A DNA stretch of 58,087 bases from Candidatus Omnitrophota bacterium (GTDB taxonomy: Bacteria; Omnitrophota; Gorgyraeia; Zapsychrales; Zapsychraceae): contig JAJDCB010000008.1 in assembly GCA_029261065.1 (NCBI GenBank), positions 1 through 58,087 of the forward strand. The letters are read 5' to 3'. Numbering within the stretch: the first letter of the stretch is position 1; each line of letters starts with the position of its first letter. The notes under the pieces were generated by a model that ran no database searches, was not told the DNA's origin, and saw nothing but the letters and a program-made list of their open reading frames with translations. A program made the position numbers and the translations under genes. This document shows, piece after piece, positions 38,953 through 55,102 of this stretch.

Positions 38953-40338
38953 TCACTTATCAAGAATGTCGTATTTCTTCATCTTATTATACAAAGTTGT
39001 TCTATTGATACCCAATGTAGCAGCGGCTTTATTTCGATTCCAATTACAATCATTGAGAATAGAAATAATATGTTCTTTCTCTGGTTGCTCAACAACCTTT
39101 TTTAAAGACTTTTCATCACGAGTTGAACTAACTGGTGATTTTTCAAATTTAGCTAAACTGGGAACATCCCACTTATTAGCGATTTCGGTCTTAGCCATGA
39201 TAACAGCACCTTCAACAGCATTCTCTAACTCTCTGATATTTCCAGGCCATGTATAATCAAGAAACAATTTCTTTACCTCATTAGAAATAGAAGTTACTTT
39301 CTTCTTATTATCATGACTATATTTTTCTAAATAAAAATTAACAATTGACTCAATGTCTTCTCGTCTCTCACGAAGAGGAGGCATTTGAATGCTAATGACA
39401 TTAATACGATAATAAAGGTCTTCTCTAAAGTCACCCTTCTCAACTAATTGGGCTAAATCTTGATTGGTAGCCACAATAATCCGCGCATCTGCTTTTCGGG
39501 TAACGTTATCACCAACGCGTTCGAAAACGCCATCTTGTAGAACACGTAACAACTTAACTTGTAAACCTAATGAAAAAGCATCAATTTCATCAAGAAATAT
39601 AGTTCCTCCGTCGGCAAATTCAAAACGCCCTTCTTTATCTTTAATGGCTCCAGTAAAAGCACCTTTCACATGACCAAAAAGTTCGCTTTCCAATAATGTC
39701 TCAGAGATAGCTCCACAGCTAATTTCTACAAACGGCTTATTTCTACGATGAACATCTGTTTGATGAATGGCACGTGCAACCAATCCCTTTCCAGTACCAC
39801 TCTCTCCTGTAATATGTATCGTTGCGTTTGTACTAGCAACAGAATCAATAATGTTATAGACACTTTGAATTTTATGAGAAGATCCAATCATGTCACAAAA
39901 TGATGGTCTTTGATTCTTAGCAATTAGCTCCTTAAGGGCTTTATTTTCTTCCAAGATTTTTTTCTTATCGGCAATTTTTTGAATAACAATCTTAATTTCA
40001 TTATCATTGATAGGTTTTGTAATGTAATCAAAAGCCCCTTTTTTCATAGCTTCAACAGCAGATTCGATAGAACCGTAGCCTGTAATTAATATGACTTCTA
40101 TTTCGTCATAAGTATTTTTAATTTCTTCTAATAACTGCAAACCCGTCATTTTAGGCAGCTTAAAATCTGTTACAACAATATCAACAGGATTCTTTTTTAA
40201 TTGCTCTAAGGCATCTTCAGCGCTTGGGGCCATTTGAACACGATAACCTTCTATACGTAGAATTTCATATAAAGATTCTCGGATTAAAGGTTCATCATCG
40301 ACAATTAAAATTTGAAATTGACTATTCTGCTCATTCAT
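38953..40338 (-). CDS. Sigma-54-dependent response regulator (NtrC family, PrsR-like role inferred)
   Basis: Receiver ILIVDDE..VTDFK; GESGTGK; GAFTGA; FLDEI; WPGNIRELEN; Fis-type HTH. Start placed at MNEQ. Confidence 0.95.
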   Translation of the reverse strand: MNEQNSQFQILIVDDEPLIRESLYEILRIEGYRVQMAPSAEDALEQLKKNPVDIVVTDFKLPKMTGLQLLEEIKNTYDEIEVILITGYGSIESAVEAMKKGAFDYITKPINDNEIKIVIQKIADKKKILEENKALKELIAKNQRPSFCDMIGSSHKIQSVYNIIDSVASTNATIHITGESGTGKGLVARAIHQTDVHRRNKPFVEISCGAISETLLESELFGHVKGAFTGAIKDKEGRFEFADGGTIFLDEIDAFSLGLQVKLLRVLQDGVFERVGDNVTRKADARIIVATNQDLAQLVEKGDFREDLYYRINVISIQMPPLRERREDIESIVNFYLEKYSHDNKKKVTSISNEVKKLFLDYTWPGNIRELENAVEGAVIMAKTEIANKWDVPSLAKFEKSPVSSTRDEKSLKKVVEQPEKEHIISILNDCNWNRNKAAATLGINRTTLYNKMKKYDILDK

Positions 40339-41635
40339 CTGGGTCACCATATATAGGTAAACTTATAATAAAGGCTGTTCCTTTATTCTCTGCACTTTCA
40401 ATATTAATTGTACCGTTATAGCTTTTAACGATTTCTCCCACAATGGTTAAGCCCAGACCGCAGCCTTTATCCATATCTTTTGTGGTGAAAAAAGGTTCAA
40501 AAATCTTATTAATATTTTCTTTAGAAATTCCAACACCATTATCTGAAATTCTCATTTCCAAATCATCTTTCTTATTTGTAATCTCAATGGAAATCTCTCC
40601 ATCCTCACCAACAGCATCAATCGCATTGTGAATGATATTTGTAAGAATACGTTCCACACCTAAGTCTAATATTAAAGGAATATCGTTAGATAAATTTTTA
40701 TTAATTGTAATATTTTTGTGCGCCACATCCATATTCCTACTATTTAAAGCATGATCAAGAGCGTGCGCTACATTTACTTTTTGTTGAGGTGGCGTGTCAT
40801 TGCGGGAACACGCTAGTAAGTTTTTAACAATATTAGCCATTCTATTTAAACCATGTTTGATTTCCATTAAATACCCTTGAACAACGTCATCTTCTTTTGT
40901 ATGTTCAAGGCAAAGATTGGTATAACGCAAAACACCATCTAGCGGATTGTTAAATTCATGAGCGATCCCTCCTGCCAATTTACCAATAGACGCCAATTTC
41001 TCATGGATAACTATTTGATTCTTTAAAATATTTTTCTCTTGGTTCGTTTGGCCTAACTTATCTTTTAAATCTTTCGATTCCTTTACAATCAGCCTAAACT
41101 TTTGATAGAGCTGAATACGTCTAAAATTTAAAGCTATCTGACTTGTCAGAAAATCTAGTAGCTGCATATCATCTTTTGTAAATCGCTTTCCAGATTCTTT
41201 ATCAGTAATGTTTATGACACCTATTAGATTATCCTTAACCATCAAAGGCGCACAAATAAAAGAAGATGTGACATAACTTTTTCTCGGTTTAAAATTTAAA
41301 AACCTGTCATCCTTTGCTATGTCATCAACGAAAACAGGTTGTTTCGACTCAGCCACACGACCAACAATTCCCTCCCCCATACGTTTAACCATACTTTTAG
41401 TTTCAGCTTGAGCCATCCCTTGAGACGTTTTAAGTTCTAAATCATGACCGTTTGATCTTAAAATAAAAATGGAGCCCCTTGAGGCTCCATATAAATCCAT
41501 AATACCTTTAAGCGATATTTCTAATAGCTCATTGGCATTAAAAACGGTATTAACTGTTTCGCAAATCTCACTAATTCTTTCAAACAACTCAACTTTAGTA
41601 AGATCTTCTATTGTTGAATTAAACTTTGAGACCAT
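40331..41635 (-). CDS. Cytoplasmic GAF-domain sensor histidine kinase (PrsK-like role inferred)
   Basis: GAF domain; H-box IAHEFNNPL; N-box NIIHNAIDA; DNGVG; FEPFFTTK; GCGLGL. Confidence 0.93.
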   Translation of the reverse strand: MVSKFNSTIEDLTKVELFERISEICETVNTVFNANELLEISLKGIMDLYGASRGSIFILRSNGHDLELKTSQGMAQAETKSMVKRMGEGIVGRVAESKQPVFVDDIAKDDRFLNFKPRKSYVTSSFICAPLMVKDNLIGVINITDKESGKRFTKDDMQLLDFLTSQIALNFRRIQLYQKFRLIVKESKDLKDKLGQTNQEKNILKNQIVIHEKLASIGKLAGGIAHEFNNPLDGVLRYTNLCLEHTKEDDVVQGYLMEIKHGLNRMANIVKNLLACSRNDTPPQQKVNVAHALDHALNSRNMDVAHKNITINKNLSNDIPLILDLGVERILTNIIHNAIDAVGEDGEISIEITNKKDDLEMRISDNGVGISKENINKIFEPFFTTKDMDKGCGLGLTIVGEIVKSYNGTINIESAENKGTAFIISLPIYGDPDE

Positions 41636-41641
41636 TTTTTA

Positions 41642-42532
41642 TTAATTCTCTATAACGATATTTTCATCTCTTAAAAGCTTAAAACTTTGCACCATTCGCT
41701 CTAAGATTTTTTGGAAGGGATGATTGGGGTTTTGACTTAAAAAATCCTGATAGATTCGAATTGGGATATCATAGTTACCTAATTTTGTTGAAGCTATAGT
41801 ATTAATCGTTTTAATTGTTGTCTCTGCACGATCTACCGTCCAATACTTTGGATCTGGAAATTTAAGAAACAAGTCACCCAAGTCCTGTAGGGCATTTGTC
41901 CATTTCTTCTGAGAAATATAACAAATAGACTTAGAGCGAATAGACTGGAACTCAATAAGAGTATCAGGATGTGCGGCAATCAATTGATCATAATGAAGGA
42001 TAGCATCATTAAAGGCTTTTCTCATTTTCACTGGCTCATTTTTAGATTCGTAAACTTGCGCAATCAAAATGGGTGTTCTAATTCCTAAATCAGTTAAGGG
42101 ATAATTTTTCATTATCCTTTCATAAACTATCAATACATTGTCAAAATCCTTCTCCATTGCAAAGGTACGCCCAATTTCAGATAAAGCACTAACACCGACA
42201 TCATCACTGTCATAACTAGTAATAACTTCTTCAAAGACACCTCTCGCCTGTTCAAAATCTTTCTGTATCATAAAAATTCGTCCAGATTGAATATGAGCTA
42301 AAGGCGTTAAAGGGGAATCAGGATAACGCACCGTAAACCTTCGATAGCGATTAAATATTTGTTTAAAATTAATATCCGGAATAATTTTTGGATCTTTAGA
42401 ATATTCAACAAACTTATTATTAATTCGCGTTAATTCGACTTCAGCTGAATAACCACTTCCCTTATCTAAAAAAGATAGTATTAGGAATAATCCAATCAGA
42501 ATCCCAATAAATATTACTAAAGCTTTTTTCAT
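41642..42532 (-). CDS. Membrane-anchored tetratricopeptide repeat protein
   Basis: N-terminal TM; repeated YP.S/TPL/DL..A and A...F/Y..I...YP TPR signatures. Confidence 0.8.
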   Translation of the reverse strand: MKKALVIFIGILIGLFLILSFLDKGSGYSAEVELTRINNKFVEYSKDPKIIPDINFKQIFNRYRRFTVRYPDSPLTPLAHIQSGRIFMIQKDFEQARGVFEEVITSYDSDDVGVSALSEIGRTFAMEKDFDNVLIVYERIMKNYPLTDLGIRTPILIAQVYESKNEPVKMRKAFNDAILHYDQLIAAHPDTLIEFQSIRSKSICYISQKKWTNALQDLGDLFLKFPDPKYWTVDRAETTIKTINTIASTKLGNYDIPIRIYQDFLSQNPNHPFQKILERMVQSFKLLRDENIVIEN

Positions 42533-43401
42533 TCACTTTCCCTTAATAGTAAACATCGCATAACAATGGCTGTATAGACGATACCATCAATAATAAACAT
42601 TATAAAAATACTGAAAACCAAATATACAATCTTTAGCTCTGGAAATTGTTCATCAAGACTAAATGATTTATTGAGTATGATCAAAATAAGAAAGATAAGC
42701 GAAGGTAAGGCAACGACAAAAAAAGTATAAAAAAAAGATTTCGATAACACTTTTAAATTAACCCATAGCGCTGAAAATACTTTTCTTTTTTCTATAACGA
42801 TTATTGGAATAACATAAATAAATAATACCGAGACAAATATATTGATCAATAAATTAAATAAAGGCGCTCCATCAATCACGAGACGTTTGAGCAAATAAAA
42901 AGGACCTGTTGTTGAACGGATAATGATGGCTCTATGGATCGCAATATTGTAAAGTTCAGAAAATAAGATAACAAATCCAAAAGATATAAGCCCTATAACA
43001 ACATAGTGTACGTAATTGGGCATATTCTCTTTTAATACCTCGTTCATTCGCACTTTATCTCCATTATTAATTTTCACAATAATAGAAACCATCAGAGCAA
43101 TACAAAAACATGTCAAAAAGACATAAATAAACGCTTGAACATACATATTTTGGAATATAGTTGGCACTAGGAAAAGATTTAGAGGGTAATGCAGATATTC
43201 TTCAGCCCAAAAAGTCTTAATTATGGGTGTAAAAAATACTTTTAGTGGAAACCGCGGGTAAAAATAAAGAATCTCCAGATATAACAATTTTACAAATGCA
43301 ACAATGCACAGTGGAAACAATATTTCTTTATTACTTAATAATGTCGTAACAGCAGACTTTAATAACGAAAAAACATTGCTTTTGGCTTTATTTTTATTCA
43401 T
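42529..43401 (-). CDS. Polytopic membrane protein, unknown function
   Basis: About 6 hydrophobic segments; 4-bp overlap with the TPR gene. Confidence 0.7.
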   Translation of the reverse strand: MNKNKAKSNVFSLLKSAVTTLLSNKEILFPLCIVAFVKLLYLEILYFYPRFPLKVFFTPIIKTFWAEEYLHYPLNLFLVPTIFQNMYVQAFIYVFLTCFCIALMVSIIVKINNGDKVRMNEVLKENMPNYVHYVVIGLISFGFVILFSELYNIAIHRAIIIRSTTGPFYLLKRLVIDGAPLFNLLINIFVSVLFIYVIPIIVIEKRKVFSALWVNLKVLSKSFFYTFFVVALPSLIFLILIILNKSFSLDEQFPELKIVYLVFSIFIMFIIDGIVYTAIVMRCLLLRESE

Positions 43402-43690: not shown

Positions 43691-43963
43691 TTATTTTTTC
43701 TTATTTTTGAAATAAGCCATTGCTACTAAACCAGTTCCAAGAAGCAACATAGTTGCTGGCTCTGGATTAACTACTGTAGCTACAGTACCGCCACCACCAG
43801 CACCTGCAGCAGCTCCACCGCCGCCACCAGCTCCACCAGTACCAGTAAAAAGGCTACCAAGAGCAGCACTTCCACCACCACCGCCGCCTTGACATCCTGC
43901 AACTAAAGGAAGGAGCACTAACATGCTTACCGAGTGTACTATTTTTTTAATTTTTGATAACAT
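43691..43963 (-). CDS. 90-aa Gly-rich lipoprotein with PEP-CTERM sorting signal
   Basis: Lipobox LVAG|C24; Gly/Ala linker; NPEPATMLLLGTGLVAMAYFKNKKK. Confidence 0.85.
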   Translation of the reverse strand: MLSKIKKIVHSVSMLVLLPLVAGCQGGGGGGSAALGSLFTGTGGAGGGGGAAAGAGGGGTVATVVNPEPATMLLLGTGLVAMAYFKNKKK

Positions 43964-44017: not shown

Positions 44018-44890
44018 TTAGCTTCTTTTTTTTCTACGAGTCATAGCAAAACCAACTAAACCAGAACCGAATAATGCCATTGTCATTGGTTCGGGAATTG
44101 GTTGAACTCGGTCTACTAAATAAATTAAATCATCATAATCTTCATCACCTAATTTTCCTGTTTGAAGATTTACAGGCTTATCTTCCCAAGCAATTAAATA
44201 TGGATCTTTAAATTCATATAGAAAAGCAGGAGCAGCACCAATTTGAACCCAAACTTCTTGCCCAGCTAAAGCTGACAATCTATAAGTTAACATATGGTCA
44301 AGACCATCTGGATTTAAAGCTGGATTAGAATCCCAAACATCAATAGGTCCAGCCGTTGGTACACTTTCTATAGACCAACCAAAGTTAGTTCCAGGAGCTA
44401 ATGGACTTAAACCTGCTGTAAAAGGTGTCGCTGCAGAAGTTCCATCACCAGTAAATCCAAAACCACTTTGCCCAGTAAGACCAACAACAGGAATTTTTAC
44501 ACCAGGAGCAGCTGTTGAATAAACTCTTAATGAATTACTATTAGCAGCTGTTAAAGAGATAAGAATAAATGTTCCATCATTATTCTGATCGCTTAAATCT
44601 TGCCATGTAGAATCCGGCCCTGTAAATTGCAAATTATCAACATCTGAATTATGCGTATGTGCTGTGCCTAACAATAAATTAATAGCATCATTAATATCAG
44701 CAGGATTTGGAACACCGGCAAGATTATCATTATCATCGTTTGGCGTACTAACACCAGGCAAATTACCGCCTCCCTGTAGAATCCCATAAACATCGTTTGC
44801 AATATCCGGTGTAAATGGTTGTGCGAAAACGTTTGAAGCTACAAACATAAACATTATCGCTAACATTACATTCAATTTAACTTTTTTCAT
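44018..44890 (-). CDS. PEP-CTERM sorting domain protein with DUF4114-like acidic motif
   Basis: Signal peptide VFA|QP; IAWED...GDEDYDDLIY; IPEPMTMALFGSGLVGFAMTRRKKRS. Confidence 0.9.
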   Translation of the reverse strand: MKKVKLNVMLAIMFMFVASNVFAQPFTPDIANDVYGILQGGGNLPGVSTPNDDNDNLAGVPNPADINDAINLLLGTAHTHNSDVDNLQFTGPDSTWQDLSDQNNDGTFILISLTAANSNSLRVYSTAAPGVKIPVVGLTGQSGFGFTGDGTSAATPFTAGLSPLAPGTNFGWSIESVPTAGPIDVWDSNPALNPDGLDHMLTYRLSALAGQEVWVQIGAAPAFLYEFKDPYLIAWEDKPVNLQTGKLGDEDYDDLIYLVDRVQPIPEPMTMALFGSGLVGFAMTRRKKRS

Positions 44891-44997: not shown

Positions 44998-45855
44998 TTA
45001 ACGAGCCCCCTCGCCCGTTACAACCACACGAAATGTTCTCAGGATAATATTGATATCCGCCCAAAAACACATTTTCTTTATATAGAGAAGATCATATCGC
45101 AATTTTTTCCTAACATCTGCAATAGTCTCATCATAGCGATGCCAAACTTGAGCTAAACCTGTAATTCCTGGTTTCACCATTAATCTCTGCTCATAATTAG
45201 GCATCGTTTCCTTAAATTTATCTACAAATACTGGTCTCTCTGGTCTTGGACCAATAACACTCATCTCGCCACGTAGTACATTAAATAACTGAGGCAACTC
45301 ATCTAAATGAGCCTTTCTTAAAAAACCTCCAACAGGTGTAAGCCTATTATCATTTTCCGCAGCCCAAACAGGCCCTGTTTCTTTTTCAGCATCTATTTTC
45401 ATCGTACGAAATTTATAAATCTGGAAAGATTCTCCATCTTTACCAACACGCACTTGAGAATAAATAATGGGCCCCTTAGATGTCAATTTTACTAATATAG
45501 CCGTTAAAAGCAGCATTGGTGACAATACAATAAAACCAGCCGTTGAGGCCACAAGATCAAAACTTCTTTTAGCAAAAGCGTATGTTCTACGAACAAAACT
45601 TACTATCATCCCTAAAAAGCCCCCCCCAAAAAGAGCTAACGTAGATGGCTCAGGAACCATAGTCCTGTTATTTTTAGCTTCAGTGCTCAAATTTTCTAAA
45701 CCTTGAACATCGCTGGCCAATTGACCATTTTGAAGATTTTCTTGTGTATTAACAAATGACACTGTTGCCCATGCAGAAGCACACATGAAGCTTATGATAA
45801 GCGTCATTAATGTTAGCTTGAATCTTTTAATTTGTTTTTGTCTTTTTCTACTCAT
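44998..45855 (-). CDS. Priming phosphoglycosyltransferase (Bac_transf/monoPGT) with N-terminal signal peptide and internal PEP-CTERM motif
   Basis: ASAWA| signal; VPEPSTLALFGGGFLGMIVSFVRR (aa 67-90); then KRSFD, IYKFRTM, LDELPQLFNVLRGEMSVIGPRPE, KPGITGLAQV. Confidence 0.92.
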   Translation of the reverse strand: MSRKRQKQIKRFKLTLMTLIISFMCASAWATVSFVNTQENLQNGQLASDVQGLENLSTEAKNNRTMVPEPSTLALFGGGFLGMIVSFVRRTYAFAKRSFDLVASTAGFIVLSPMLLLTAILVKLTSKGPIIYSQVRVGKDGESFQIYKFRTMKIDAEKETGPVWAAENDNRLTPVGGFLRKAHLDELPQLFNVLRGEMSVIGPRPERPVFVDKFKETMPNYEQRLMVKPGITGLAQVWHRYDETIADVRKKLRYDLLYIKKMCFWADINIILRTFRVVVTGEGAR

Positions 45856-45908: not shown

Positions 45909-45925
45909 AGCAAATTGCGTGCCAA
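45909..45925 (-). promoter_or_regulatory. Sigma-54 (-24/-12) promoter
   Basis: Minus strand TTGGCACGCAATTTGCT, a consensus match to YTGGCACG-N4-TTGCW, 54 bp upstream of the ATG at 45855. Confidence 0.9.
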
Positions 45926-46168: not shown

Positions 46169-46807
46169 TTACGGTAGGTATTCCCTAAGATACGGATAAA
46201 TATCTTGGATAAACTCCTTTAAATCAGCTTCAACTTCTGGTGTTCCTTTTTTAAAAGCAGCTGCAGAAATGCGTATGAGCGCACTACTTGAAGGCTTGCC
46301 TAAAAGTGTTTTTATCGTTATTAGTCCTTGTTGCTTCCAATAGCTGGCAGTATAAGAATTTCCCACTTTAAACCAATAATAAGCGAGATGCTCAAAGCGC
46401 CCTTGCTGAAGATTAAGCCTGTGAGCCTTTAAATCAATCTCGGCTGAGTCAAACTTCAGGGGAACCGTTTTATTGCTGGTAATAGAAAAACCACCTCCCG
46501 AAAAACATATCTCCGGAGGATGTGACACTTTTCTGTTATTCTCAGAATAAACGATGAAAAGATCGGCAACCTTGCCATCTTCTGTTTTGTACCTTCTTGA
46601 AAAAGCATTGTCTGTTTCCAGAATTTGATATTCATAATCACTAATGATTAACTCTTCTGAGCTCCAGCCTTTAACAGTTTTAGGAAAAAGATGGATATTA
46701 ACCGTGTCAGACTGTTTATAAACCTTGAAATACAAATACCAAGAAATTAAACAAGAAAACGCCATCACACACAAAATAACAATAAATTTTTTATCACTTT
46801 TTTTCAT
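46169..46807 (-). CDS. epsI: EpsI family exosortase-associated protein
   Basis: FPKTVKGW, RRY, HPPEICFSGGG, YYWF, ALIRIS; adjacent to the exosortase; start placed at MKKSDK. Confidence 0.88.
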   Translation of the reverse strand: MKKSDKKFIVILCVMAFSCLISWYLYFKVYKQSDTVNIHLFPKTVKGWSSEELIISDYEYQILETDNAFSRRYKTEDGKVADLFIVYSENNRKVSHPPEICFSGGGFSITSNKTVPLKFDSAEIDLKAHRLNLQQGRFEHLAYYWFKVGNSYTASYWKQQGLITIKTLLGKPSSSALIRISAAAFKKGTPEVEADLKEFIQDIYPYLREYLP

Positions 46808-46921
46808 AATTATGGCGAAATCAATTAGCAAAAACAATACTTATTGATTTCTTTCCTATGCAAAATATTAAATCTATAATTTTTAGCAATATTTGCCATT
46901 GCTAATTAATCTCTCCTATTC

Positions 46922-47746
46922 CTATTCCAACAATTTTTTAACAGCAAATAGCAGAATAAACGCTAAGACAAAAATCATATAACCCGTTAAATCATGCCAA
47001 AAACCCGTGGCATACTGTGCACCCCAAATTTCACTAACACAAGAAAGCATAACAACCCGACAAACATTTGTAACAATAGCAATCGGAATGGTTGAAAGAA
47101 ATAATATCACTCTCTTAACATGACTACCCTGCATCCAATAGGCAAAAATACTTCCTAACGCTGTCAGAGAAATTAACGACCTTAAACCACTACAAACGTC
47201 GTCGACGATGACCTGTGTATTACGCATAATGATAAGACTCCCCTTTTGTAAAGCAGGGATACCCATGTTGTTTAATAAAATGGCTGCAATTTCAGCAGCA
47301 AACATTTTTAATTTGAAACTAATATTTACAATGAGATGTTGCGGTAAAGGAATCATAAAGGCTAGAAAGAAAATGGGGAAAGCAATTTTCTTTAATGTCT
47401 TTGATCCAAAAAAGAATAAAATAAAACCTACTAAAACAATCAGTGTTGAGTACCCAGAACTAAAATAGATACGAATATTTGGCAAAGAACTCACTATGTG
47501 AATTCCCATCCCCAACAAAATAAGCCTCATCCCCCAAGGGGACTCCTTCCATTTGATTAACTTTAACTCATCTTTTAATTGCCAAATAAGATATATAGAA
47601 ACGATTGGAATCAAAAATCCATGACTATAATAAGAATCTTGCGCCCACCATCGATCCCACATCCAATTATATGTAGGAAAATAAGCCGCAAAAAATAAAC
47701 CTAAAGCAAAAATGTGTTTTTTGTATTTACTTAAAATCTCATTCAT
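46922..47746 (-). CDS. Exosortase (EpsH family)
   Basis: YYSHGFLIP, F.IPLP, triad Cys (DVCSGLRSL), Arg (NVCRV) and His (FWHDLTG); polytopic membrane protein. Confidence 0.93.
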   Translation of the reverse strand: MNEILSKYKKHIFALGLFFAAYFPTYNWMWDRWWAQDSYYSHGFLIPIVSIYLIWQLKDELKLIKWKESPWGMRLILLGMGIHIVSSLPNIRIYFSSGYSTLIVLVGFILFFFGSKTLKKIAFPIFFLAFMIPLPQHLIVNISFKLKMFAAEIAAILLNNMGIPALQKGSLIIMRNTQVIVDDVCSGLRSLISLTALGSIFAYWMQGSHVKRVILFLSTIPIAIVTNVCRVVMLSCVSEIWGAQYATGFWHDLTGYMIFVLAFILLFAVKKLLE

Positions 47747-47747
47747 A

Positions 47748-48896
47748 TTAACTCCTCGCCTTCTCCCACTTGACTTCTTGTTTTTGCAGCAAAAACCTTA
47801 AAAGACCAACTAACGCTGAAAAATTCAATAAACAAAAAACATAAGGCACATAACATAATTTGGCAATAAACTTTAGAATACCATATGTTTGATATCTTGC
47901 CAAGGCACCTACAAAAGCCATTAAATAAAAAAGAAACTGCAAAAATAGTATTATTTGATAAAACTCCTCATTAAGCAAGGCCAAATTCAACAAAAAAACA
48001 AAGATAAGACAATACGGCATAACGACCCTTAAAAACTTATGAGAAAACAATTGAACCGCAACCGGACTTAAGCCTGGCACAAACATCCCTTTAAAAAGGC
48101 CAAAAATTTGATAATTCCCATACAATGTTCGCGCTTTTCTTCGGTACTCTTCTTTGGGACTGTCAGCCACCTCGTCATAGGCACGCGCATTATCGTCAAA
48201 ATAAGCACGATATCCTTGTTGAATAATTTTTAAAGGAACATACATATCATCTAACACCACAGACTCTGGAATTGGCGTATAAAGTTCTTTACGTAATACA
48301 TAAATCGCGCCTGTCGCGCCTAACATCGAATGCCATTTAGCCTCATAGAGCCTAATAAATTTTTCATAACTCCAATAAAGATTTACTCCTCGTGCCGTCG
48401 CCCCTTCCTTTTTGGAGAACACTAACTCGCCACTAACACATCCCACCGATGGATCAGCCAAATTGCTTACTAATACTTTAAGAGCATTCTTATCAAAAAG
48501 TTGACGGGCATCCGTAAATAACAGAATATCGTACTTAGCCTTTGGTACTAATTGATTAAGGGTAACCATTTTGCCATGGCGTCTATCATCTTTTACTAAA
48601 TGAACCCTTGAATCATCAATAGCCTCAATAAGCTCATTGGTCTTATCTGTTGAACCATCTGAGCCGATGATGATTTCAATTTTTTCCTTCGGATAGTCTA
48701 GTGAAAGGAGATTTTCTATCTTGGGAACAATCACATCTTCTTCGTTATAAACAGATAAAACAATCGACACCGACGGTTCAATGGAACTTTTTTTAACCCT
48801 CTTCTCATTAATACTAGCTAACAAATAGATAGCCAAAGGATAACCAAAATAACAATAGACAATTAAAATAATAAAAAACCAAAATAAAACTTCCAT
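47748..48896 (-). CDS. Family 2 glycosyltransferase (IcaA/PgaC-like, membrane-bound)
   Basis: VYNEE, SDGSTD, FTDAR, GATGAIY, LDDM; flanking TM segments. Confidence 0.88.
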   Translation of the reverse strand: MEVLFWFFIILIVYCYFGYPLAIYLLASINEKRVKKSSIEPSVSIVLSVYNEEDVIVPKIENLLSLDYPKEKIEIIIGSDGSTDKTNELIEAIDDSRVHLVKDDRRHGKMVTLNQLVPKAKYDILLFTDARQLFDKNALKVLVSNLADPSVGCVSGELVFSKKEGATARGVNLYWSYEKFIRLYEAKWHSMLGATGAIYVLRKELYTPIPESVVLDDMYVPLKIIQQGYRAYFDDNARAYDEVADSPKEEYRRKARTLYGNYQIFGLFKGMFVPGLSPVAVQLFSHKFLRVVMPYCLIFVFLLNLALLNEEFYQIILFLQFLFYLMAFVGALARYQTYGILKFIAKLCYVPYVFCLLNFSALVGLLRFLLQKQEVKWEKARS

Positions 48897-48917
48897 ATTT
48901 TTTTCAAAACCTCACAT

Positions 48918-49691
48918 TTATTTAAAAATTTTCACCAATCCACTTCTTAACCAATTGTATCCAGATTCTCCAATTATTCTTTGTACAATTTGTTTAAGAA
49001 CATTTACTAACCACTCTCTTTTTGGCACCTCTAATAAGATGGCTTGTTCAAATCTTTTCATAGTCCATGTTCTTTTAACAGCCACACGTGTCAAGCAGCT
49101 CTCCGTTACACGCGATGGTTTATTAGAAATAAACACATTGTTATAACCAACTTCTCGCGCCATTTGAATAATTTTATTATTGCAAAATCCTCTAGGGATA
49201 GATATATCTTCGACGAGGATATCAAGATTTTTTTCGATAGTTCTTTTTGAAGCTGCAAGCTCCTGTTCAATCTGAGTATCCAAAAGATTTGTTAAAATTT
49301 CATGACTTAATCCATGCGATCCAATGATCATACCCGCCTCATGCAATTTGCGGATTTGATCCCAACTCATGTAGCCTTCTTTTCCTACTCTATTTACAAT
49401 AATAAAAAAATAAGCGCGCGCATTAAACTCTTTTAAAATTGACAAAGCCTGCTCATAATTACTTAATTCACCATCATCAAACGTTAAGATTACCTGAGCT
49501 TCATCATTCTCATCTCGATCAGTAATCGTCGTCATGCTATAATTTCGGCTTTTAAGCCAAGAAATTTGATTACGAAAATTTTCTATAGACACATCATAAA
49601 TATCGGCCCCCGTATCTCGTAATTTCGAAACGGTACCATTCTCAATGGTAATACCGTGGTACATTAAAATAAGCGGTAAATTACTTTTCAT
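48918..49691 (-). CDS. Polysaccharide deacetylase
   Basis: LMYHG, LTFDDG, IGSHGLSH. Confidence 0.9.
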   Translation of the reverse strand: MKSNLPLILMYHGITIENGTVSKLRDTGADIYDVSIENFRNQISWLKSRNYSMTTITDRDENDEAQVILTFDDGELSNYEQALSILKEFNARAYFFIIVNRVGKEGYMSWDQIRKLHEAGMIIGSHGLSHEILTNLLDTQIEQELAASKRTIEKNLDILVEDISIPRGFCNNKIIQMAREVGYNNVFISNKPSRVTESCLTRVAVKRTWTMKRFEQAILLEVPKREWLVNVLKQIVQRIIGESGYNWLRSGLVKIFK

Positions 49692-50586: not shown

Positions 50587-52977
50587 TTATTTTAACGACT
50601 CTTTATGTTCTTTTAAAATTTTTCCTACTTCAATAATATAGGCAGCCATCAAATCCCTATACTGTTTTAATTTCTGGCCATCTTTGGTAAAATTACGTTC
50701 CGATTTAACAATCGACTTATCAATAATCAGCGTTTTACTCGCTTTACTAAAGACACCTTTATGTTTTTCACTTAGATTTAAATTTCTCATTTCAATTAAT
50801 TGTTTCTGTAAAAGAACAAAGTATTCATAATCTTCCATCCCATCACGAAAAATTTCTGCGCGTAACGATGGCACCGGACCTTTTTTTCCTGGATAAAATA
50901 ACAAACCATTTCCATTTTGATCCCACTTGGTGTTCGCTGCACTCTTAAAAGGATCAACATAAACCCACCAATTTACACTCCAATATAAAAACCCGCGGAA
51001 CCCTAACTTCCAACTCATCCAAGGGATAATCCTATAATCTACAGAGTCAAAATCAATGGCTAAATTGGGCGTTCCATCGCCGCTGGGGCCTGAAACATAC
51101 ATCCACATTTCCATGCCATAATCTTTAAGTTTTTGCATCTTTTTGGCATCAAAATTACTTATTTGAAAACACCAAATGTCTATATCTTTACCCCAATCCG
51201 TATTATCATCGGGATCCCAAAACCCATGATAACAAACCATATTTTTTAGTTTCGGATGCGCCCGATGAATCATCGAGGTGACTTTAGGAACTTGTGGATT
51301 ACCAATCTCGCCTTCATCCCATGTGTATATATACGTAGAGTCTATAAATTTATTTAGCGTTAATAATTCACCGTAACGTTGATACAAAGGTTTTAATTTC
51401 TCTAACTCCGTCGCATTGGCAGGCCAATTATTATTAAATGTCCCACCCTTTCGTCCGATGGCAAACTGACTTAAACCTTTGGGTTTATAGCGATCAATAC
51501 GACCTAATTCATAGTCCGATGTTGGGTCAATATTTAAAATTGGATCCATACGATACTTCAACATCTCTAATATAAACTTTTCATTTAAACCCCCAATACG
51601 ACGCTGATACTGGTCATATGATTCTGTTGCTCTTTGAGGATAACGCGTATGCGTTTCATGGGCATAAAAATCAAAAGCTGTTTTAAGATGACTATGCGTT
51701 GGTAATTGAAACGGATAGACTCTTACAAAAAGAGGCAACTCCTTTGTATCTTCTCCTTGAACACTAACTTTAATGAGCCCTTTATAAAGCCCTGGTTTTG
51801 TATCTTTCTCTGCATAAACAGTAATCCAAAACGGTTGAGCTTCTCCTGGAGGGATGTTAAGAAGTTGTTTCTCTAATAGTGGATCTGGCCACTCCCCAAC
51901 ATACTTAACAGGATAATATGGTTTTTTGGTTGGCACATAACCAACAATACGCGTTGTAATATTCTCACGAGGTAATACCGTTTTTAGAGACTCGTGAATA
52001 AGATCCGTAATTTCAACACGAACATCTATCAATTGATTCATTCCGTTTTGAACAACAATTTGAAAGGGCTCGTATTCATTGGCCGCTAAAGAAATTTTGG
52101 CCTCTGGACTAAAATCAGGTTCAACCAAGGTTTGACCATCTTTAAAAACACGATCAAGGCTCGACGCTATTTTAACGTCATAACCTCTTTCTAACTTTCT
52201 AGATTCACGTTTTGCTAATTCATTGTTTTTACTTTCTAACCCTTTAGAGATACGATCTTCTCCATCCGCCTGACGCATTCCCATATTATCAAAATACAAA
52301 AATGTATTCGTCTTTAAATGTTTCGCAAAAATCTTAACATAAGACATCGCATGAAGATCGCACGATTGCGCGATGGCTGACATAGGAATTTCAATGGAGT
52401 TATTGGCCAATGGTTCTAGATGTACGGGATAAGAATAAGATTTTTTAGGATAATTTTTTCCACTTTTAAACTTTACTTCTAAACTTACAGAATTTTCCGT
52501 ATTGTTATAAACATCAAAATGAAAATTTTCAGCCCTTGACCAATCTTGAGCGTCTCCTCCAAACACCTCCCATGAAAACCCAGGAAATTGACCATCCGTT
52601 GGAATTTTAACTAACAAAGAATGGCTCCCATGTGTAGGATGACCATCAGACACTTCAATGGTAACCTCTTCTTCTGCATTTAATTGATTAAGTTCATCAC
52701 CCCTTTCAAAACTAAAATAGAAATCTTTGGATTTTTTAAAACCGGCAAAAAAACCTCCAGACTTCTTTTTATTATCTCCATAACGTTGAGGAGGACCTTC
52801 TCTTAATCCTGTCTTGACCAACGCCGCCTTAGCAAGAGCCTTAGCTCGTCCCAATCCAACCCCAGACGAAATATATCGATAGGCTAAAAAAGAACCGGCC
52901 CCCAATGCGATCATAAGCACGATTCCAATAATCATTCCTGTTAAAAAATTTATTGTTTTATCTTTGTTTTTTTTCAT
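50587..52977 (-). CDS. Membrane-anchored DUF4091/GH123-like glycoside hydrolase with N-terminal CBM-like domain
   Basis: ANEYEPFQIV, WPDPL, QPFWITV, TWDEG, GFLYW, GLLFYPG, SLRAEIFRDGMEDYEY; start moved to MKKNK. Confidence 0.78.
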   Translation of the reverse strand: MKKNKDKTINFLTGMIIGIVLMIALGAGSFLAYRYISSGVGLGRAKALAKAALVKTGLREGPPQRYGDNKKKSGGFFAGFKKSKDFYFSFERGDELNQLNAEEEVTIEVSDGHPTHGSHSLLVKIPTDGQFPGFSWEVFGGDAQDWSRAENFHFDVYNNTENSVSLEVKFKSGKNYPKKSYSYPVHLEPLANNSIEIPMSAIAQSCDLHAMSYVKIFAKHLKTNTFLYFDNMGMRQADGEDRISKGLESKNNELAKRESRKLERGYDVKIASSLDRVFKDGQTLVEPDFSPEAKISLAANEYEPFQIVVQNGMNQLIDVRVEITDLIHESLKTVLPRENITTRIVGYVPTKKPYYPVKYVGEWPDPLLEKQLLNIPPGEAQPFWITVYAEKDTKPGLYKGLIKVSVQGEDTKELPLFVRVYPFQLPTHSHLKTAFDFYAHETHTRYPQRATESYDQYQRRIGGLNEKFILEMLKYRMDPILNIDPTSDYELGRIDRYKPKGLSQFAIGRKGGTFNNNWPANATELEKLKPLYQRYGELLTLNKFIDSTYIYTWDEGEIGNPQVPKVTSMIHRAHPKLKNMVCYHGFWDPDDNTDWGKDIDIWCFQISNFDAKKMQKLKDYGMEMWMYVSGPSGDGTPNLAIDFDSVDYRIIPWMSWKLGFRGFLYWSVNWWVYVDPFKSAANTKWDQNGNGLLFYPGKKGPVPSLRAEIFRDGMEDYEYFVLLQKQLIEMRNLNLSEKHKGVFSKASKTLIIDKSIVKSERNFTKDGQKLKQYRDLMAAYIIEVGKILKEHKESLK

Positions 52978-52987
52978 ATCACTTATC

Positions 52988-55102
52988 CTATTGATCCTCA
53001 TACAAAATTTGCAACATATTGACCGAATGTGCTGGCAGATTATACAAAAAAGAGGGCCCAACATCTTCTACATGGAAGGCATCAATTTTGACTGTATGGG
53101 GTTGGCCATCATTTTGAGCCTCTAAGGCTGGCCCATTTAAAATCCAAACTTTACCCACTTCTTTAGGGGTAACTCCATCGACTAAAATCTTGACGGTGTA
53201 GTCTTGTGTGGCATGTTTATTAATAAGAGCGATCGCAATTTTACTTTGCCCCTCAAAAGTACTACTGTACGCCGAGACATACGGCACATATCCAGAATAA
53301 GAATCTGATCGCCAATCCTGTTCTTTATAAAAGGTTGGGACATCTTGCATCTCTTGTTCTATGAGCGAATCCCCAAAATATTCTGAAAATAATTTTAAGG
53401 CAAACGCCTTAGGACGAATTGTATCACCATCCCAACGATTTCCACCCCAACCAGCATCTCTATCCCATCCTCTTACAAATCCAAACATGACTTCTTGTAA
53501 ACTGTAATTGATGGCTAATGGTATTTGGTGTAAGGCAAACTGCCCTAACGTATCAGCGTAAAAAATGGCATTTGCCAAGGACCACATCATCCCTTGATAT
53601 TCATAATCTAAATCTGAAGGTGCGCCATCCCAAGACCCATCCCATTCAAGAAACGTTGTTTCAATCTTATCCTTACGATGCGGCGCATATTTTTCAATTA
53701 AATTTTCAACCCGTTCTTTCATGGATTCAACAGCCAAATAATTCCCCATAATCTCCTCTGCCAAAGGATGATCCCTTCCCTTATATTTATGACTGGCATT
53801 AATATGATTTGGATACCAATGATAAGAAACAAAATCAATATGATCAGCAGCCTCGCGTATAACAGCTTCATCAAAATCCTGATAACCAGGCCCCCCAAGA
53901 TTGGCACCAATCTTAATAGAAGGATCAACAGCCTTCATAGCCTGGGCATATTGCTTAATAATCGCGGCATATTCAGAGCCACTCATATAATTTCGTTCCC
54001 AATCCCCATAAACCTCATTACCCATCTCCCAATACGTAACGGGAAAATTTTCTGTCTCATTCATGAACTTAACCCAATCTGCAGCCTCTTGGGGTGTACC
54101 TGATTCAATATTCACTTGAAGAACTAAAGAGGAGCCCATAATTTTCGCAAATTTAATGACATTCTCCATTTTGGATAAAGGTGCGGCATCAAATCGTTCA
54201 TTAAAATCAAAAACCCCCTCTTTCCAATGATACCCTTCTGAGCTACTTCCTGGAAAACGCATAACGGAAACTCCTAGACTTTTGCCAAGCTTTGCCACAT
54301 CCATTTCAAATTCTGTTTTTGCTGTTAAGTTACTTCCATAAATTAACGGGCTAATAGGGTGTACCTTTTTTTGAGGGTAAACTCTCAGCTCTAATCTATT
54401 GTCTAGATTTACACTATCTTCTTTCTCTTCTTTAATTAACTTTGCTTCTTCATTATAAATAATTTCACTTTGACTTATACGTATGTTATCAAGAAAAAGA
54501 GTCTGTTTTTTATTTGGGGAACTTACAAAAAAATTAATGTATGATATTTTGTTAATATCGATCTCTTTTGCTATTTCCTTGATCTTTATACGAATAGTCC
54601 TTCCTTCGCTTTCATCCAGCGTAAATACTTTTTCAAAAGATTTCTTAGGATAATTTTTTCCACTTTTAATCTTTACATTCAACTTCAACTTACCCTTATT
54701 AGGATTATAGACATCAAGTAAAAAGAATTTTCCCAACTTCCAATTAAAGACATCTCGCCCAAAAACCTCTAACTGCAATCCAGGAAACGACCTACCTTTG
54801 GGAAACTCAACAAGCAAAGATTTTTGACCATTGGTGGCAAACTCCAAAGATTGCTTTGAAACAGCACCATCATTATTTTCAAATAGATTTATATCAACTC
54901 GACTTTCAAATGTAATAAAAAAATGTTTTTGTAATGAACTAATTTTAGAATGCATGGATTTCGTCGTAACATCCGATCTACTATCTTTAATCGATTTATA
55001 AACAACATAACTACCGACAAGCACTAAGAACGTCACTAACATTCCTACAAAAATGCCTACCTTTAATGACTTTTGATTATCGTTATTTTGTGATTTTTTC
55101 AT
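52988..55102 (-). CDS. Membrane-anchored clan GH-A (GH51/GH79-like) glycoside hydrolase with N-terminal CBM-like domain
   Basis: PISPLIYGSN, MRFPG..YHW, acid/base YWEMGNE, candidate nucleophile FLEWD, C-terminal LPAHSV. Confidence 0.78.
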   Translation of the reverse strand: MKKSQNNDNQKSLKVGIFVGMLVTFLVLVGSYVVYKSIKDSRSDVTTKSMHSKISSLQKHFFITFESRVDINLFENNDGAVSKQSLEFATNGQKSLLVEFPKGRSFPGLQLEVFGRDVFNWKLGKFFLLDVYNPNKGKLKLNVKIKSGKNYPKKSFEKVFTLDESEGRTIRIKIKEIAKEIDINKISYINFFVSSPNKKQTLFLDNIRISQSEIIYNEEAKLIKEEKEDSVNLDNRLELRVYPQKKVHPISPLIYGSNLTAKTEFEMDVAKLGKSLGVSVMRFPGSSSEGYHWKEGVFDFNERFDAAPLSKMENVIKFAKIMGSSLVLQVNIESGTPQEAADWVKFMNETENFPVTYWEMGNEVYGDWERNYMSGSEYAAIIKQYAQAMKAVDPSIKIGANLGGPGYQDFDEAVIREAADHIDFVSYHWYPNHINASHKYKGRDHPLAEEIMGNYLAVESMKERVENLIEKYAPHRKDKIETTFLEWDGSWDGAPSDLDYEYQGMMWSLANAIFYADTLGQFALHQIPLAINYSLQEVMFGFVRGWDRDAGWGGNRWDGDTIRPKAFALKLFSEYFGDSLIEQEMQDVPTFYKEQDWRSDSYSGYVPYVSAYSSTFEGQSKIAIALINKHATQDYTVKILVDGVTPKEVGKVWILNGPALEAQNDGQPHTVKIDAFHVEDVGPSFLYNLPAHSVNMLQILYEDQ

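What the first reader, a model, noticed from the sequence alone, without database searches (positions are those of the whole stretch)
44998..45855. Priming glycosyltransferase fused behind an internal PEP-CTERM sorting signal: a possible exosortase-gated start of polysaccharide synthesis
The ORF reads: signal peptide (aa 1-30), 36-aa polar ectopeptide, VPEPST + TM helix + RR (aa 67-90, nt 45657-45586), then a complete monotopic phosphoglycosyltransferase with the DELPQ catalytic motif. PEP-CTERM motifs are by definition C-terminal; here the motif is internal and its TM helix would place the enzyme in the cytoplasm, the correct side. The exosortase (Cys/Arg/His intact) and EpsI are the next genes upstream. 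Inferred options: exosortase cleavage activates, releases or destabilises the enzyme that loads the first sugar on undecaprenyl-P; the motif docks the enzyme on the exosortase to couple glycan synthesis to protein sorting; or one gene yields both a sorted peptide and an enzyme. I am not aware of a description of this fusion.
Basis: partly seen in the sequence, partly recalled or inferred. Interest (0 to 1): 0.9.

Follow-up and report, generated by a model that had tools for sequence, protein, structure and literature searches.

The report
Exosortase sorting tag fused to sugar-priming enzyme
One intact, conserved gene joins a secretion signal, a short exported stretch and a genuine PEP-CTERM sorting tag to the enzyme that starts polysaccharide synthesis, always next to the exosortase gene, which points to a physical link between surface-protein sorting and sugar-chain initiation that I could not find described in print.

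Summary
ORF 44998-45855(-) is one 285-aa protein. It has a signal peptide (aa 1-30), a polar linker (31-66), a PEP-CTERM module (67-90; PF07589 26.8 bits, cut-off 20.7) and a small PglC/WbaP-type phosphoglycosyl transferase (96-279; PF02397 229 bits).

It is not an assembly artefact. Dozens of homologues from independent assemblies keep the same frame, and PEP is invariant in them. The linker is hypervariable: column identity is 0.33, against 0.86 for the PEP-TM-RR module.

In 24 diverse members the PEP-to-catalytic-domain junction has no indel. The exported part ranges from 0 residues (proteins starting MPEP) to about 245 residues, in one case with a PKD domain.

Among 301 genomes of the phylum, 29 carry the fusion. 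All 29 have an exosortase within 7 kb, against 50 of 272 genomes without the fusion.

The fusion's tag keeps the cargo core (PEP-x-[ST]-x-x-L-x-G-x-G-x-x-G). The residue before PEP is Ala in 28 of 31 fusions and in 2 of 81 neighbouring cargo tags.

Best reading: the tag is an exosortase-recognition helix that couples the priming enzyme to the exosortase. Whether it is cleaved is open. I class it as a new variant of a known kind. The scan has found it repeatedly, and I found no published description.

The parts
45766..45855 (-). Signal peptide, aa 1-30: a K/R-rich n-region, the hydrophobic stretch L14-A26, then A28-W29-A30 before T31
   Evidence: Read from the sequence. The motif 'A-x-A-W-A | T-V-S' is conserved and W29 is invariant in 17 homologues. 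All 31 fusions of this class have an N-terminal hydrophobic segment. No SignalP-type predictor was available, so cleavage is inferred.
45658..45765 (-). Polar exported linker ('ectopeptide'), aa 31-66
   Evidence: Mean column identity is 0.33 over aa 39-62, against 0.84-0.86 for the flanking modules. Its length is roughly 8-58 aa within the class by a crude cleavage-site heuristic and 0 to about 245 aa in more distant fusions.
45586..45657 (-). Internal PEP-CTERM module, aa 67-90: V-PEP-ST, a TM helix (LALFGGGFLGMIVSFV), then RR
   Evidence: PF07589 scores 26.8 bits against a 20.7 cut-off. TIGR02595 scores 20 bits against 16. P68, E69, P70, T72, L75, F76, G77 and G79 are invariant. The core PEP-x-[ST]-x-x-L-x-G-x-G-x-x-G is shared with 81 cargo signals.
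45571..45585 (-). Junction, aa 91-95 (TYAFA), between the basic cluster and the KR that opens the transferase domain
   Evidence: There are no insertions or deletions between PEP and KRxxD in 24 diverse fusions from several clades.
44998..45570 (-). Small phosphoglycosyl transferase domain, aa 96-285 plus the stop. It contains the reentrant helix (aa 96-125, with S112-P113) and the D185-E186 dyad in DELPQ (nt 45289-45303).
   Evidence: PF02397 scores 229 bits over profile positions 1-178 of 179. TIGR03025 scores 309.3 bits against 295.55. WbaP (8t53) matches at 1.8e-35 and PglC (8e37) at 5.5e-32.
45910..45925 (-). Sigma-54-type promoter TGGCACGCAATTTGCT, 70 nt upstream of the ATG
Evidence: Pattern scan. 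The same TGGCAY-N5-TTGCT element lies upstream of the fusion gene in L001, L002, L003, L081, L082 and L085.
46922..47746 (-). Exosortase, 274 aa; the only one in the genome
   Evidence: PF09721 scores 228 bits. TIGR02602 scores 179.4 bits against 105.55, and no Xrt subtype model reaches its cut-off. It is the single PF09721 hit in the genome. Motifs CSGLR-185, NVCR-227 and WHD-250 are present.
46169..46837 (-). EpsI (DUF3485), a separate gene
   Evidence: PF11984 scores 117 bits. TIGR02914 scores 91.8 bits against 42.8.
44018..44890 (-). Canonical PEP-CTERM cargo protein, 290 aa, DUF4114-like, directly downstream of the fusion gene
   Evidence: PF07589 scores 25.1 bits at aa 264-286 of 290. 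A PEP-CTERM gene occupies this position in L081, L082, L090 and L091.
43691..43963 (-). Second canonical PEP-CTERM protein, 90 aa, Gly-rich
   Evidence: PF07589 scores 24.5 bits and TIGR02595 scores 23.6 bits.
47748..49691 (-). GT2 glycosyltransferase (47748-48896) and CE4 polysaccharide deacetylase (48918-49691), upstream of the exosortase
   Evidence: Pfam and NCBIfam hits. The same order is seen in L082, L084 and L091.
38953..43401 (-). Conserved downstream block: a 290-aa polytopic membrane protein with no family (42529-43401), a TPR protein (41642-42532), a GAF histidine kinase (40331-41635) and a sigma-54 response regulator (38953-40350)
   Evidence: ORFs are. The response regulator scores 410 bits on TIGR02915 (PrsR), below the 502.6 cut-off. 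The same block is present in L082, L085 and L091.

Best explanation
**What the protein is.** The gene encodes a small PglC/WbaP-type phosphoglycosyl transferase. Its extra N-terminal membrane helix is a genuine PEP-CTERM sorting module.

**Inferred biogenesis.**
1. The signal peptide takes the N-terminus across the inner membrane.
2. The PEP motif comes to lie at the periplasmic face.
3. The PEP-CTERM helix spans the membrane from outside to inside.
4. RR...KR holds the chain on the cytoplasmic side, where the reentrant helix and catalytic domain load a sugar-1-phosphate onto polyprenyl phosphate.

**Proposed function of the module (inferred).** The PEP-TM-basic module is the element that the neighbouring exosortase/EpsI pair recognises in its cargo. 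In this protein it makes the priming enzyme a client or partner of the exosortase. Initiation of the lipid-linked glycan would then happen at, or be coordinated with, the site where PEP-CTERM proteins are processed. I think a docking or pseudo-substrate role is somewhat more likely than a role that depends on releasing the exported part.

**Regulation.** The gene sits behind a sigma-54 promoter of the kind that drives PEP-CTERM genes. It is followed, and probably co-transcribed, by two ordinary PEP-CTERM cargo genes.

**Shown versus inferred.**
- Shown: the architecture, its conservation, the indel-free junction, the co-distribution with exosortase, and the distinct signature before PEP.
- Inferred: signal-peptide cleavage, topology, physical interaction with the exosortase, and any cleavage at PEP.
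For: 1. **The tag is genuine.** Its HMM scores are above the curated cut-offs and equal to those of neighbouring cargo. It shares the cargo core PEP-x-[ST]-x-x-L-x-G-x-G-x-x-G: L at +5 in 30 of 31 fusions, G at +9 in 28 of 31, G at +12 in 25 of 31.
2. **There is selection on the tag, not on the cargo part.** Column identity is 0.86 for PEP-TM-RR and 0.33 for the linker. PEP is invariant in 17 close homologues and in 24 diverse ones.
3. **The junction is fixed.** There is no indel from PEP to KRxxD across clades whose exported part ranges from 0 to about 245 aa, and one carries a PKD domain.
4. **Variants with no signal peptide or ectopeptide keep PEP.** They start M-PEP or MLAM-PEP and lie near exosortase/EpsI: L005 in a Planctomycetota genome and P0061 in L087. 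PEP therefore does more than mark a site for removing an exported domain.
5. **Co-distribution with exosortase.**
   - 29 of 29 fusion-bearing genomes have an exosortase, always on the same contig within 7 kb, against 50 of 272 other genomes of the phylum (Fisher p = 1.6e-19).
   - At locus level, 12 of 12 fusions have an exosortase within 8 kb, against 2 of 75 transferases without PEP.
6. **One informative counter-example fits.** A relative with a decayed motif (P0024, LQPAG) has no exosortase anywhere on its 10.7-kb contig.
7. **The fusion has its own signature.** Ala sits at -1 in 28 of 31 fusions against 2 of 81 cargo signals. A basic residue sits at -2 in 25 of 31 against 14 of 81. The exosortase may therefore handle the fusion differently from cargo.
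8. **The promoter is conserved.** A sigma-54 promoter lies upstream of the fusion gene in seven loci.
Against: - No experiment or structure shows an exosortase binding or cutting any PEP-CTERM signal, and certainly not this one.
- The fusions are orthologues, so the Ala(-1) signature and the co-occurrence counts are not independent events. The p-values overstate the support.
- Small transferases sit next to exosortase genes elsewhere in the phylum without any PEP helix. Gene adjacency therefore predates the fusion and would produce co-occurrence by itself.
- The window's own protein has Val, which is cargo-like, at position -1.
- Some relatives have lost PEP but kept the helix (P0021, P0024, P0025), so the helix can serve as a plain anchor.
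- The AlphaFold2 model was too poor to use (mean pLDDT 54.7).
- Reads could not be checked.
Confidence: 0.55

Rival explanations
1. The fusion is a true cleaved substrate. The exosortase cuts at or near PEP, so the 'leaving group' of the sorting reaction is the helix plus the priming enzyme. Cleavage would mature, license, relocate or destabilise the enzyme, and would release or transfer the exported part.
For: - The tag is complete and scores as well as cargo tags.
- Most members have a signal peptide, as cargo proteins do.
- Some relatives carry real exported domains in front of PEP: about 215-245 aa in P0026 and P0045, and a PKD domain in P0052. These look like whole PEP-CTERM proteins fused to the enzyme.
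- The gene shares a sigma-54 promoter with cargo genes.
Against: - The M-PEP and MLAM-PEP variants have nothing to release yet keep PEP and exosortase linkage.
- Linker sequence and length are unconstrained.
- The residues just before PEP differ systematically from those of cargo, which could mean altered or absent cleavage.
- After a cut the enzyme would still be membrane-anchored with the same cytoplasmic domain, so the gain from 'activation' is unclear.
Confidence: 0.27
2. The helix is only a membrane anchor. An ancestral read-through fused a small PEP-CTERM gene to the downstream transferase gene. The helix merely anchors and orients the enzyme, and the PEP motif is retained for insertion or folding reasons without any interaction with the exosortase.
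For: - Relatives with a decayed motif keep the helix and the RFARRRFxEFKR junction (P0021, P0024, P0025).
- Other classes of the phylum have an exosortase-adjacent transferase with no PEP helix.
- Large transferases of this family carry extra N-terminal helices: TIGR03025 matches only positions 250-445 of its profile here.
Against: - PEP and the L/G pattern of the sorting signal are as conserved as the catalytic domain (0.86 against 0.84) across clades that have randomised the linker.
- Every informative PEP-bearing member lies beside an exosortase.
- The one informative decayed member does not lie beside an exosortase.
- A generic anchor would not need an invariant Pro-Glu-Pro at the periplasmic face.
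Confidence: 0.12
3. The fusion is an artefact, or the locus makes two products. Either a sequencing or assembly error (for example at the 8-G run) joins two genes, or internal initiation (for example at Met83) makes a separate, ordinary small transferase.
For: An 8-G homopolymer lies inside the helix-coding region. Met83 is invariant in the close family.
Against: - Homologues encode the same residues with different codons and no G-run, and they stay in frame.
- More than 40 independent assemblies show the same single ORF.
- Met83 is not conserved in more distant fusions.
- No start codon lies between the basic cluster and KR.
- The read check was impossible.
Confidence: 0.03

Closest known systems
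PEP-CTERM / exosortase (EpsH, Xrt) protein-sorting system with PrsK/PrsR/PrsT-type sigma-54 regulation (Haft et al. 2006, PMC1569441; PF07589, TIGR02595, PF09721, TIGR02602)
   Same: - The tripartite signal is the same: PEP, a hydrophobic helix and a basic cluster.
- There is an N-terminal signal peptide.
- The gene lies beside the exosortase, EpsI and other PEP-CTERM genes in a polysaccharide locus.
- A sigma-54 promoter and a PrsR-like regulator are present.
   Different: - The signal is internal, with 195 residues following it. [quoted passage not shown]
- The part that stays in the membrane is an enzyme rather than a stub.
- The exported 'cargo' is short, variable or absent.
- The residue before PEP is Ala in most fusions, where cargo has V, I, T or N.
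- The exosortase reaches no Xrt subtype cut-off, and the kinase is a soluble GAF type rather than the PrsK type.
Small monotopic phosphoglycosyl transferases (PglC type; PF02397; PDB 8e37, 8g1n) and the catalytic domain of WbaP (PDB 8t53)
   Same: The Bac_transf domain is full length. It has the KRxxD start, a reentrant helix with Ser-Pro, and the Asp-Glu dyad in DELPQ.
   Different: PglC-type enzymes are monotopic and have no periplasmic segment. This protein adds a signal peptide, an exported linker and a true membrane-spanning helix in front, so it should be bitopic with a periplasmic N-terminal part.
TIGR03013 (EpsB_2) and TIGR03025 large sugar transferases of XrtA/PEP-CTERM polysaccharide loci
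   Same: They are priming transferases encoded in exosortase loci. TIGR03025 is passed at 309.3 bits against a 295.55 cut-off.
   Different: Those proteins are about 445 aa, with a poorly conserved multi-helix N-terminal domain and no PEP motif. Here only profile positions 250-445 match, and TIGR03013 is not reached (278.8 bits against 393.35).
Sortase with lipid II in Gram-positive bacteria (analogy only, from general knowledge)
   Same: It is a Cys transpeptidase sorting system whose acceptor is an undecaprenyl-pyrophosphate-linked glycan precursor. That would parallel an exosortase working beside the enzyme that primes such a lipid-linked glycan.
   Different: There is no homology. No fusion of a sortase signal to a lipid II-synthesis enzyme is known to me. 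The exosortase acceptor is unknown.

Membership tests
PEP-CTERM sorting domain (PF07589 / TIGR02595) | HMM score above the curated cut-off | tested here: met
   PF07589 scores 26.8 bits against 20.7. TIGR02595 scores 20 bits against 16.
PEP-CTERM sorting domain (PF07589 / TIGR02595) | Pro-Glu-Pro motif, then a hydrophobic helix, then a basic cluster | tested here: met
   The sequence reads VPEPST-LALFGGGFLGMIVSFV-RR. PEP is invariant in homologues. The L/G core is shared with 81 cargo signals.
PEP-CTERM sorting domain (PF07589 / TIGR02595) | Located at the extreme C-terminus of the protein | tested here: not met
   195 residues follow the motif, whereas the seven other signals in this genome end 0-4 residues from the C-terminus. 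The definition is from Haft 2006.
PEP-CTERM sorting domain (PF07589 / TIGR02595) | N-terminal signal peptide on the same protein | tested here: inconclusive
   A basic n-region, a hydrophobic core and A-W-A before T31 are visible and conserved. No signal-peptide predictor or experiment was available. Some relatives lack it altogether.
PEP-CTERM sorting domain (PF07589 / TIGR02595) | Occurs only in genomes with an exosortase | tested here: met
   29 of 29 fusion genomes have PF09721, against 50 of 272 others.
PEP-CTERM sorting domain (PF07589 / TIGR02595) | Processed by exosortase | not testable with these tools
   This needs biochemistry.
Bac_transf phosphoglycosyl transferases (PF02397), small PglC-like type | Full-length domain above the cut-off, with the Asp-Glu dyad and a reentrant helix carrying Ser-Pro | tested here: met
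   PF02397 scores 229 bits over profile positions 1-178 of 179. D185-E186 and S112-P113 are present. The domain matches WbaP and PglC, with residue-level alignment shown for WbaP.
Bac_transf phosphoglycosyl transferases (PF02397), small PglC-like type | Monotopic: a single reentrant helix and no membrane-spanning segment | tested here: not met
   Two further hydrophobic segments (the signal peptide and the PEP-CTERM helix) precede the domain. The topology itself is inferred.
Bac_transf phosphoglycosyl transferases (PF02397), small PglC-like type | Transfers a sugar-1-phosphate to polyprenyl phosphate | not testable with these tools
   This needs an enzyme assay, and the sugar is unknown.
TIGR03013 XrtA/PEP-CTERM system glycosyltransferase (EpsB_2) | Score above the curated cut-off | tested here: not met
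   278.8 bits against 393.35, with only the C-terminal half of the profile matched.
Exosortase A (XrtA) type-1 system | The neighbouring exosortase, regulator and kinase pass the XrtA, PrsR and PrsK models | tested here: not met
   XrtA scores 183.9 bits against 208. PrsR scores 410 against 502.6. PrsK scores 102.7 against 300. Only the generic exosortase model TIGR02602 is passed, at 179.4 against 105.55.

The most novel reading that the evidence does not exclude
The fusion would be a 'Rosetta stone' for the unknown acceptor of exosortase. The priming enzyme would sit in, or be delivered to, the exosortase substrate groove through its built-in PEP-CTERM helix. The [R/H]-A-PEP signature would make it a slow or non-cleaved pseudo-substrate. 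The polyprenyl-pyrophosphate-linked glycan that it starts, once flipped, would be the nucleophile onto which the exosortase transfers PEP-CTERM cargo, much as sortase uses lipid II.
Probability: 0.15. Interest if true: 0.9.

Novelty: new variant of a known kind. Interest (0 to 1): 0.6.

Why it matters
Twenty years after PEP-CTERM/exosortase was predicted, what the exosortase does chemically and what it attaches cargo to are still only predicted. [quoted passage not shown] That study also reports that losing epsH changes polysaccharide structure.

A conserved gene fusion that puts the sorting signal on the glycan-priming enzyme is independent genomic evidence that the two processes are coupled. 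It also gives a compact experimental handle of three genes: exosortase, EpsI and the fusion. The variants found here are ready-made tests of recognition against cleavage. They are the M-PEP start, the short and long exported parts, and Ala against Val before PEP.

For annotation, it shows that PF07589 hits far from a C-terminus are not always false positives.

Tried and rejected
- **Read mapping.** I used codon-level comparison with homologues instead.
- **Structure.** AlphaFold2 on the 17-sequence alignment gave mean pLDDT 54.7 and pTM 0.23. I did not use the model and ran no fold search.
- **Phylogeny.** In the tree of 145 transferase domains, every PEP fusion falls in the small-enzyme half. 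The backbone is an unresolved polytomy and my automatic labels missed three members (P0026, P0027, P0043). The tree therefore cannot say whether there was one origin or several. The indel-free junction is the better argument for a single origin.
- **Contexts of decayed-motif relatives.** The contigs carrying P0021 and P0025 are too short to tell. Only P0024 is informative.
- **Terminators.** The simple scan found no convincing terminator between the fusion gene and the two cargo genes. Co-transcription is plausible but not shown.
- **Literature.** No paper combines PEP-CTERM with 'phosphoglycosyl transferase'. Searches on sugar transferase, undecaprenyl, priming glycosyltransferase and acceptor returned nothing that describes the fusion. 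Absence from this library does not prove absence from all literature or from domain-architecture databases.
- **Rejected explanations.**
  - A chance motif is rejected because the HMM cut-offs are passed and PEP is invariant.
  - A frameshift artefact is rejected because homologues read through in frame.
  - Internal initiation at Met83 as a general feature is rejected because Met83 is not conserved outside the close family.
Full report
**1. What is in the window**

ORF 44998-45855 on the minus strand is open and encodes 285 aa.
- Pfam finds PF07589 (PEP-CTERM) at aa 67-90, at 26.8 bits against a 20.7 cut-off.
- Pfam finds PF02397 (Bac_transf) at aa 96-279, at 229 bits over profile positions 1-178 of 179.
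- NCBIfam agrees: TIGR02595 scores 20 bits against 16, and TIGR03025 scores 309.3 against 295.55 but matches only profile positions 250-445.
- The transferase part matches WbaP (8t53; 1.8e-35) and PglC (8e37; 5.5e-32), and DELPQ (aa 185-189) aligns with the catalytic region in the WbaP alignment shown.

The N-terminus reads as a signal peptide: eight K/R in the first 13 residues, the hydrophobic stretch L14-A26, and A-W-A before T31.

The genes immediately upstream are EpsI (46169-46837) and an exosortase (46922-47746). The exosortase carries CSGLR, NVCR and WHD motifs. Immediately downstream are two ordinary C-terminal PEP-CTERM proteins (44018-44890 and 43691-43963), scoring 25.1 and 24.5 bits.

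**2. The genome**

The assembly is 2.71 Mb in 36 contigs, with 37% G+C and 95% completeness. The best genome match is a Candidatus Omnitrophota MAG.

A pattern scan finds seven PEP-TM-basic signals ending 0-4 residues from a C-terminus. This one has 195 residues after it. The genome has exactly one exosortase and two Bac_transf genes: this one and a large-type one on another contig.

**3. It is not an artefact**

A word-based search with the N-terminal 110 residues returned 16 further proteins of 258-299 aa from NCBI, JGI, ENA and Logan assemblies. All have the same layout.

In their alignment W29, P68, E69, P70, T72, L75, F76, G77 and G79 are invariant. Mean column identity by region is:

| Region | Mean column identity |
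|---|---|
| Linker | 0.33 |
| PEP-TM-RR module | 0.86 |
| Catalytic domain | 0.84 |

The 8-G run inside the helix-coding region is the only obvious frameshift hazard. Homologues encode the same residues with other codons and remain in frame.

**4. The family is wider than the close homologues**

An exhaustive HMMER search of 1.84 billion cluster representatives, followed by inspection of the sequences, found PEP-bearing fusions in at least eleven further 50%-identity clusters.
- Some have a short exported part, for example P0020, P0022, P0027 and P0086.
- Some have about 215-245 exported residues (P0026, P0045).
- One has a PKD domain (P0052).
- Some have no signal peptide at all. L005 (Planctomycetota) starts MPEP with a stop two codons upstream. 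P0061 can start at most at MLAM-PEP. P0080 has 13 residues before PEP.

Others keep the helix and the basic junction but have lost PEP: P0021 has PEA, P0024 has LQPAG, and P0025 has no recognisable motif.

When 24 diverse PEP-bearing members are cut from PEP onward they align without a single indel: PEP, 17 helix residues, [RK][RK]-x-[FY]-x-x-x-KR-x-x-D. That argues for one ancestral fusion followed by free evolution of the exported part.

A tree of the transferase domains puts all fusions in the small-enzyme half but does not resolve the backbone.

**5. Link to exosortase**

Every locus with a PEP-bearing fusion and enough flank has an exosortase and EpsI within 8 kb: 12 of 12, counting the window. 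For transferases without PEP the figure is 2 of 75 (Fisher p = 5e-13).

The gene order is conserved across loci:

GT2, exosortase, EpsI, fusion, one or more PEP-CTERM genes, an unknown 290-aa membrane protein, a TPR protein, a GAF histidine kinase, a sigma-54 response regulator.

I also built an HMM of the PEP-to-reentrant-helix segment and searched 301 genomes sampled across the phylum. The result was bimodal. Thirty full-length hits at 78-108 bits fell in 29 genomes, all in the window's class. Everything else scored 60 bits or less and matched only the reentrant helix.

PF09721 searched over the same genomes gives this table:

| | Exosortase present | Exosortase absent |
|---|---|---|
| Fusion present | 29 | 0 |
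| Fusion absent | 50 | 222 |

Fisher p = 1.6e-19. In all 29 fusion genomes the exosortase is on the same contig within 7 kb.

Two caveats apply. The fusions are orthologues, so these are not independent events. And in other classes of the phylum a small transferase with a soluble N-extension (DYMLRRYQ...SKGE) occupies the same position beside the exosortase, so adjacency is older than the fusion.

The one informative relative with a decayed motif (P0024) has no exosortase on its 10.7-kb contig.

**6. Regulation**

A sigma-54 promoter, TGGCACGCAATTTGCT, lies 70 nt upstream of the ATG (45910-45925). The same element precedes the fusion gene in L001, L002, L003, L081, L082 and L085. The downstream regulator is PrsR-like, at 410 bits on TIGR02915 against a 502.6 cut-off. 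The fusion gene is therefore controlled like a PEP-CTERM gene and heads the cargo genes.

**7. Fusion tag against cargo tags**

From 31 loci I collected 31 distinct fusion tags and 81 distinct canonical C-terminal tags.

Both sets share PEP-x-[ST]-x-x-L-x-G-x-G-x-x-G. They differ just before PEP:

| Position | Fusion tags | Cargo tags | Fisher p |
|---|---|---|---|
| Ala at -1 | 28 of 31 | 2 of 81 (cargo has V, I, T or N) | 9e-21 |
| R, H or K at -2 | 25 of 31 | 14 of 81 | 6.5e-10 |

The window's own protein is one of the three exceptions, reading M-V-PEP. The fusion's tag is thus a separately constrained version of the signal, not a drifting copy of a cargo tag. This is what one would expect if the exosortase treats it differently from cargo.

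**8. Mechanism**

The topology works. The PEP-CTERM helix runs from outside to inside, and the basic residues and the transferase's own reentrant helix and catalytic domain end up in the cytoplasm, which is the correct side.

The constant element across all variants is PEP-helix-basic-transferase. The exported part is dispensable. PEP is retained even where there is nothing to cut off, and PEP retention tracks exosortase neighbourhood.

I therefore favour a recognition or docking role that couples the priming enzyme to the exosortase (confidence 0.55). True cleavage with the enzyme as leaving group is the main rival (0.27). A plain anchor comes third (0.12), and an artefact or two-product explanation last (0.03). 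None of the interaction steps is shown.

**9. What is known**

Haft et al. [quoted passage not shown] I found no paper describing the fusion.

A November 2026 paper still calls exosortase cleavage 'predicted'. It reports that an epsH knock-out changes polysaccharide structure.

Earlier notes of this scan report the same fusion in at least a dozen other genomes, with the same reading. I reached mine before reading them. They are repeats, not independent support.

- the indel-free junction;
- the 0-to-245-residue range of the exported part;
- the phylum-wide two-by-two table;
- the soluble-extension paralogue in sister classes;
- the Ala(-1)/basic(-2) signature.

**10. Verdict**

The feature is real, conserved and unpublished as far as I could search. 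It is a new variant of a known kind, and of solid interest to people working on exosortases and on phosphoglycosyl transferases. The mechanism is unproven.

Noticed in passing
window 42529-43401 (-): A 290-aa polytopic membrane protein has no Pfam or NCBIfam family. A family-less 287-291-aa protein sits in the same slot, between the PEP-CTERM cargo genes and the TPR protein, in L082, L085 and L091. It is a candidate unrecognised component of this exosortase system.
   Followed up: partly
window 43691-43963 (-): A 90-aa protein consists almost entirely of Gly/Ala between a lipoprotein-like N-terminus (LVAGC) and a canonical PEP-CTERM signal.
   Followed up: no
L100 (G123:C1:154500-163500): One genome has two nearby copies of the fusion gene, about 3.3 kb apart on the same strand. 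Over the 40 residues shown around PEP the PEP-helix-junction sequence is identical, but the signal peptides and linkers differ. This looks like a recent duplication in which only the exported part diverged.
   Followed up: no
L094-L098 (other classes of the same phylum): The small transferase next to the exosortase/EpsI pair carries a soluble N-terminal extension, conserved as 'DYMLRRYQ..SKGE.P.EE...TSWRRF', instead of a PEP helix. Its function is unknown.
   Followed up: partly
P0027, P0043, P0045, P0052, P0086 (proteins): A second clade of PEP-fused transferases has an Arg-rich insertion of roughly 20-40 residues inside the catalytic domain, after 'RVG.NRRR'. Several members carry large exported domains with an 'HWTM.CGND' motif or a PKD domain.
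   Followed up: partly
window 46922-47746 (-): The exosortase passes only the generic model (TIGR02602). It falls below every subtype cut-off: XrtD 195 bits against 400, XrtW 192 against 425, XrtA 184 against 208 and XrtV 169 against 313. It may represent an untyped exosortase class tied to this fusion.
   Followed up: no
window 45618-45625: An 8-G homopolymer lies inside the helix-coding region and encodes GGG. Homologues do not share it. It is a possible slippage site, but there is no evidence of phase variation.
   Followed up: partly
genome contig C27:20202-20768: A second Bac_transf gene of the large type (484-aa open frame) lies elsewhere in the genome. The fusion is therefore not the only priming enzyme.
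   Followed up: no
window 50587-55102 (-): Two large glycoside-hydrolase-like proteins (one GH123-like, one GH39/79-like) lie upstream of the deacetylase/GT2/exosortase block. No Wzx, Wzy or Wza genes were seen between 38.9 and 58 kb.
   Followed up: partly
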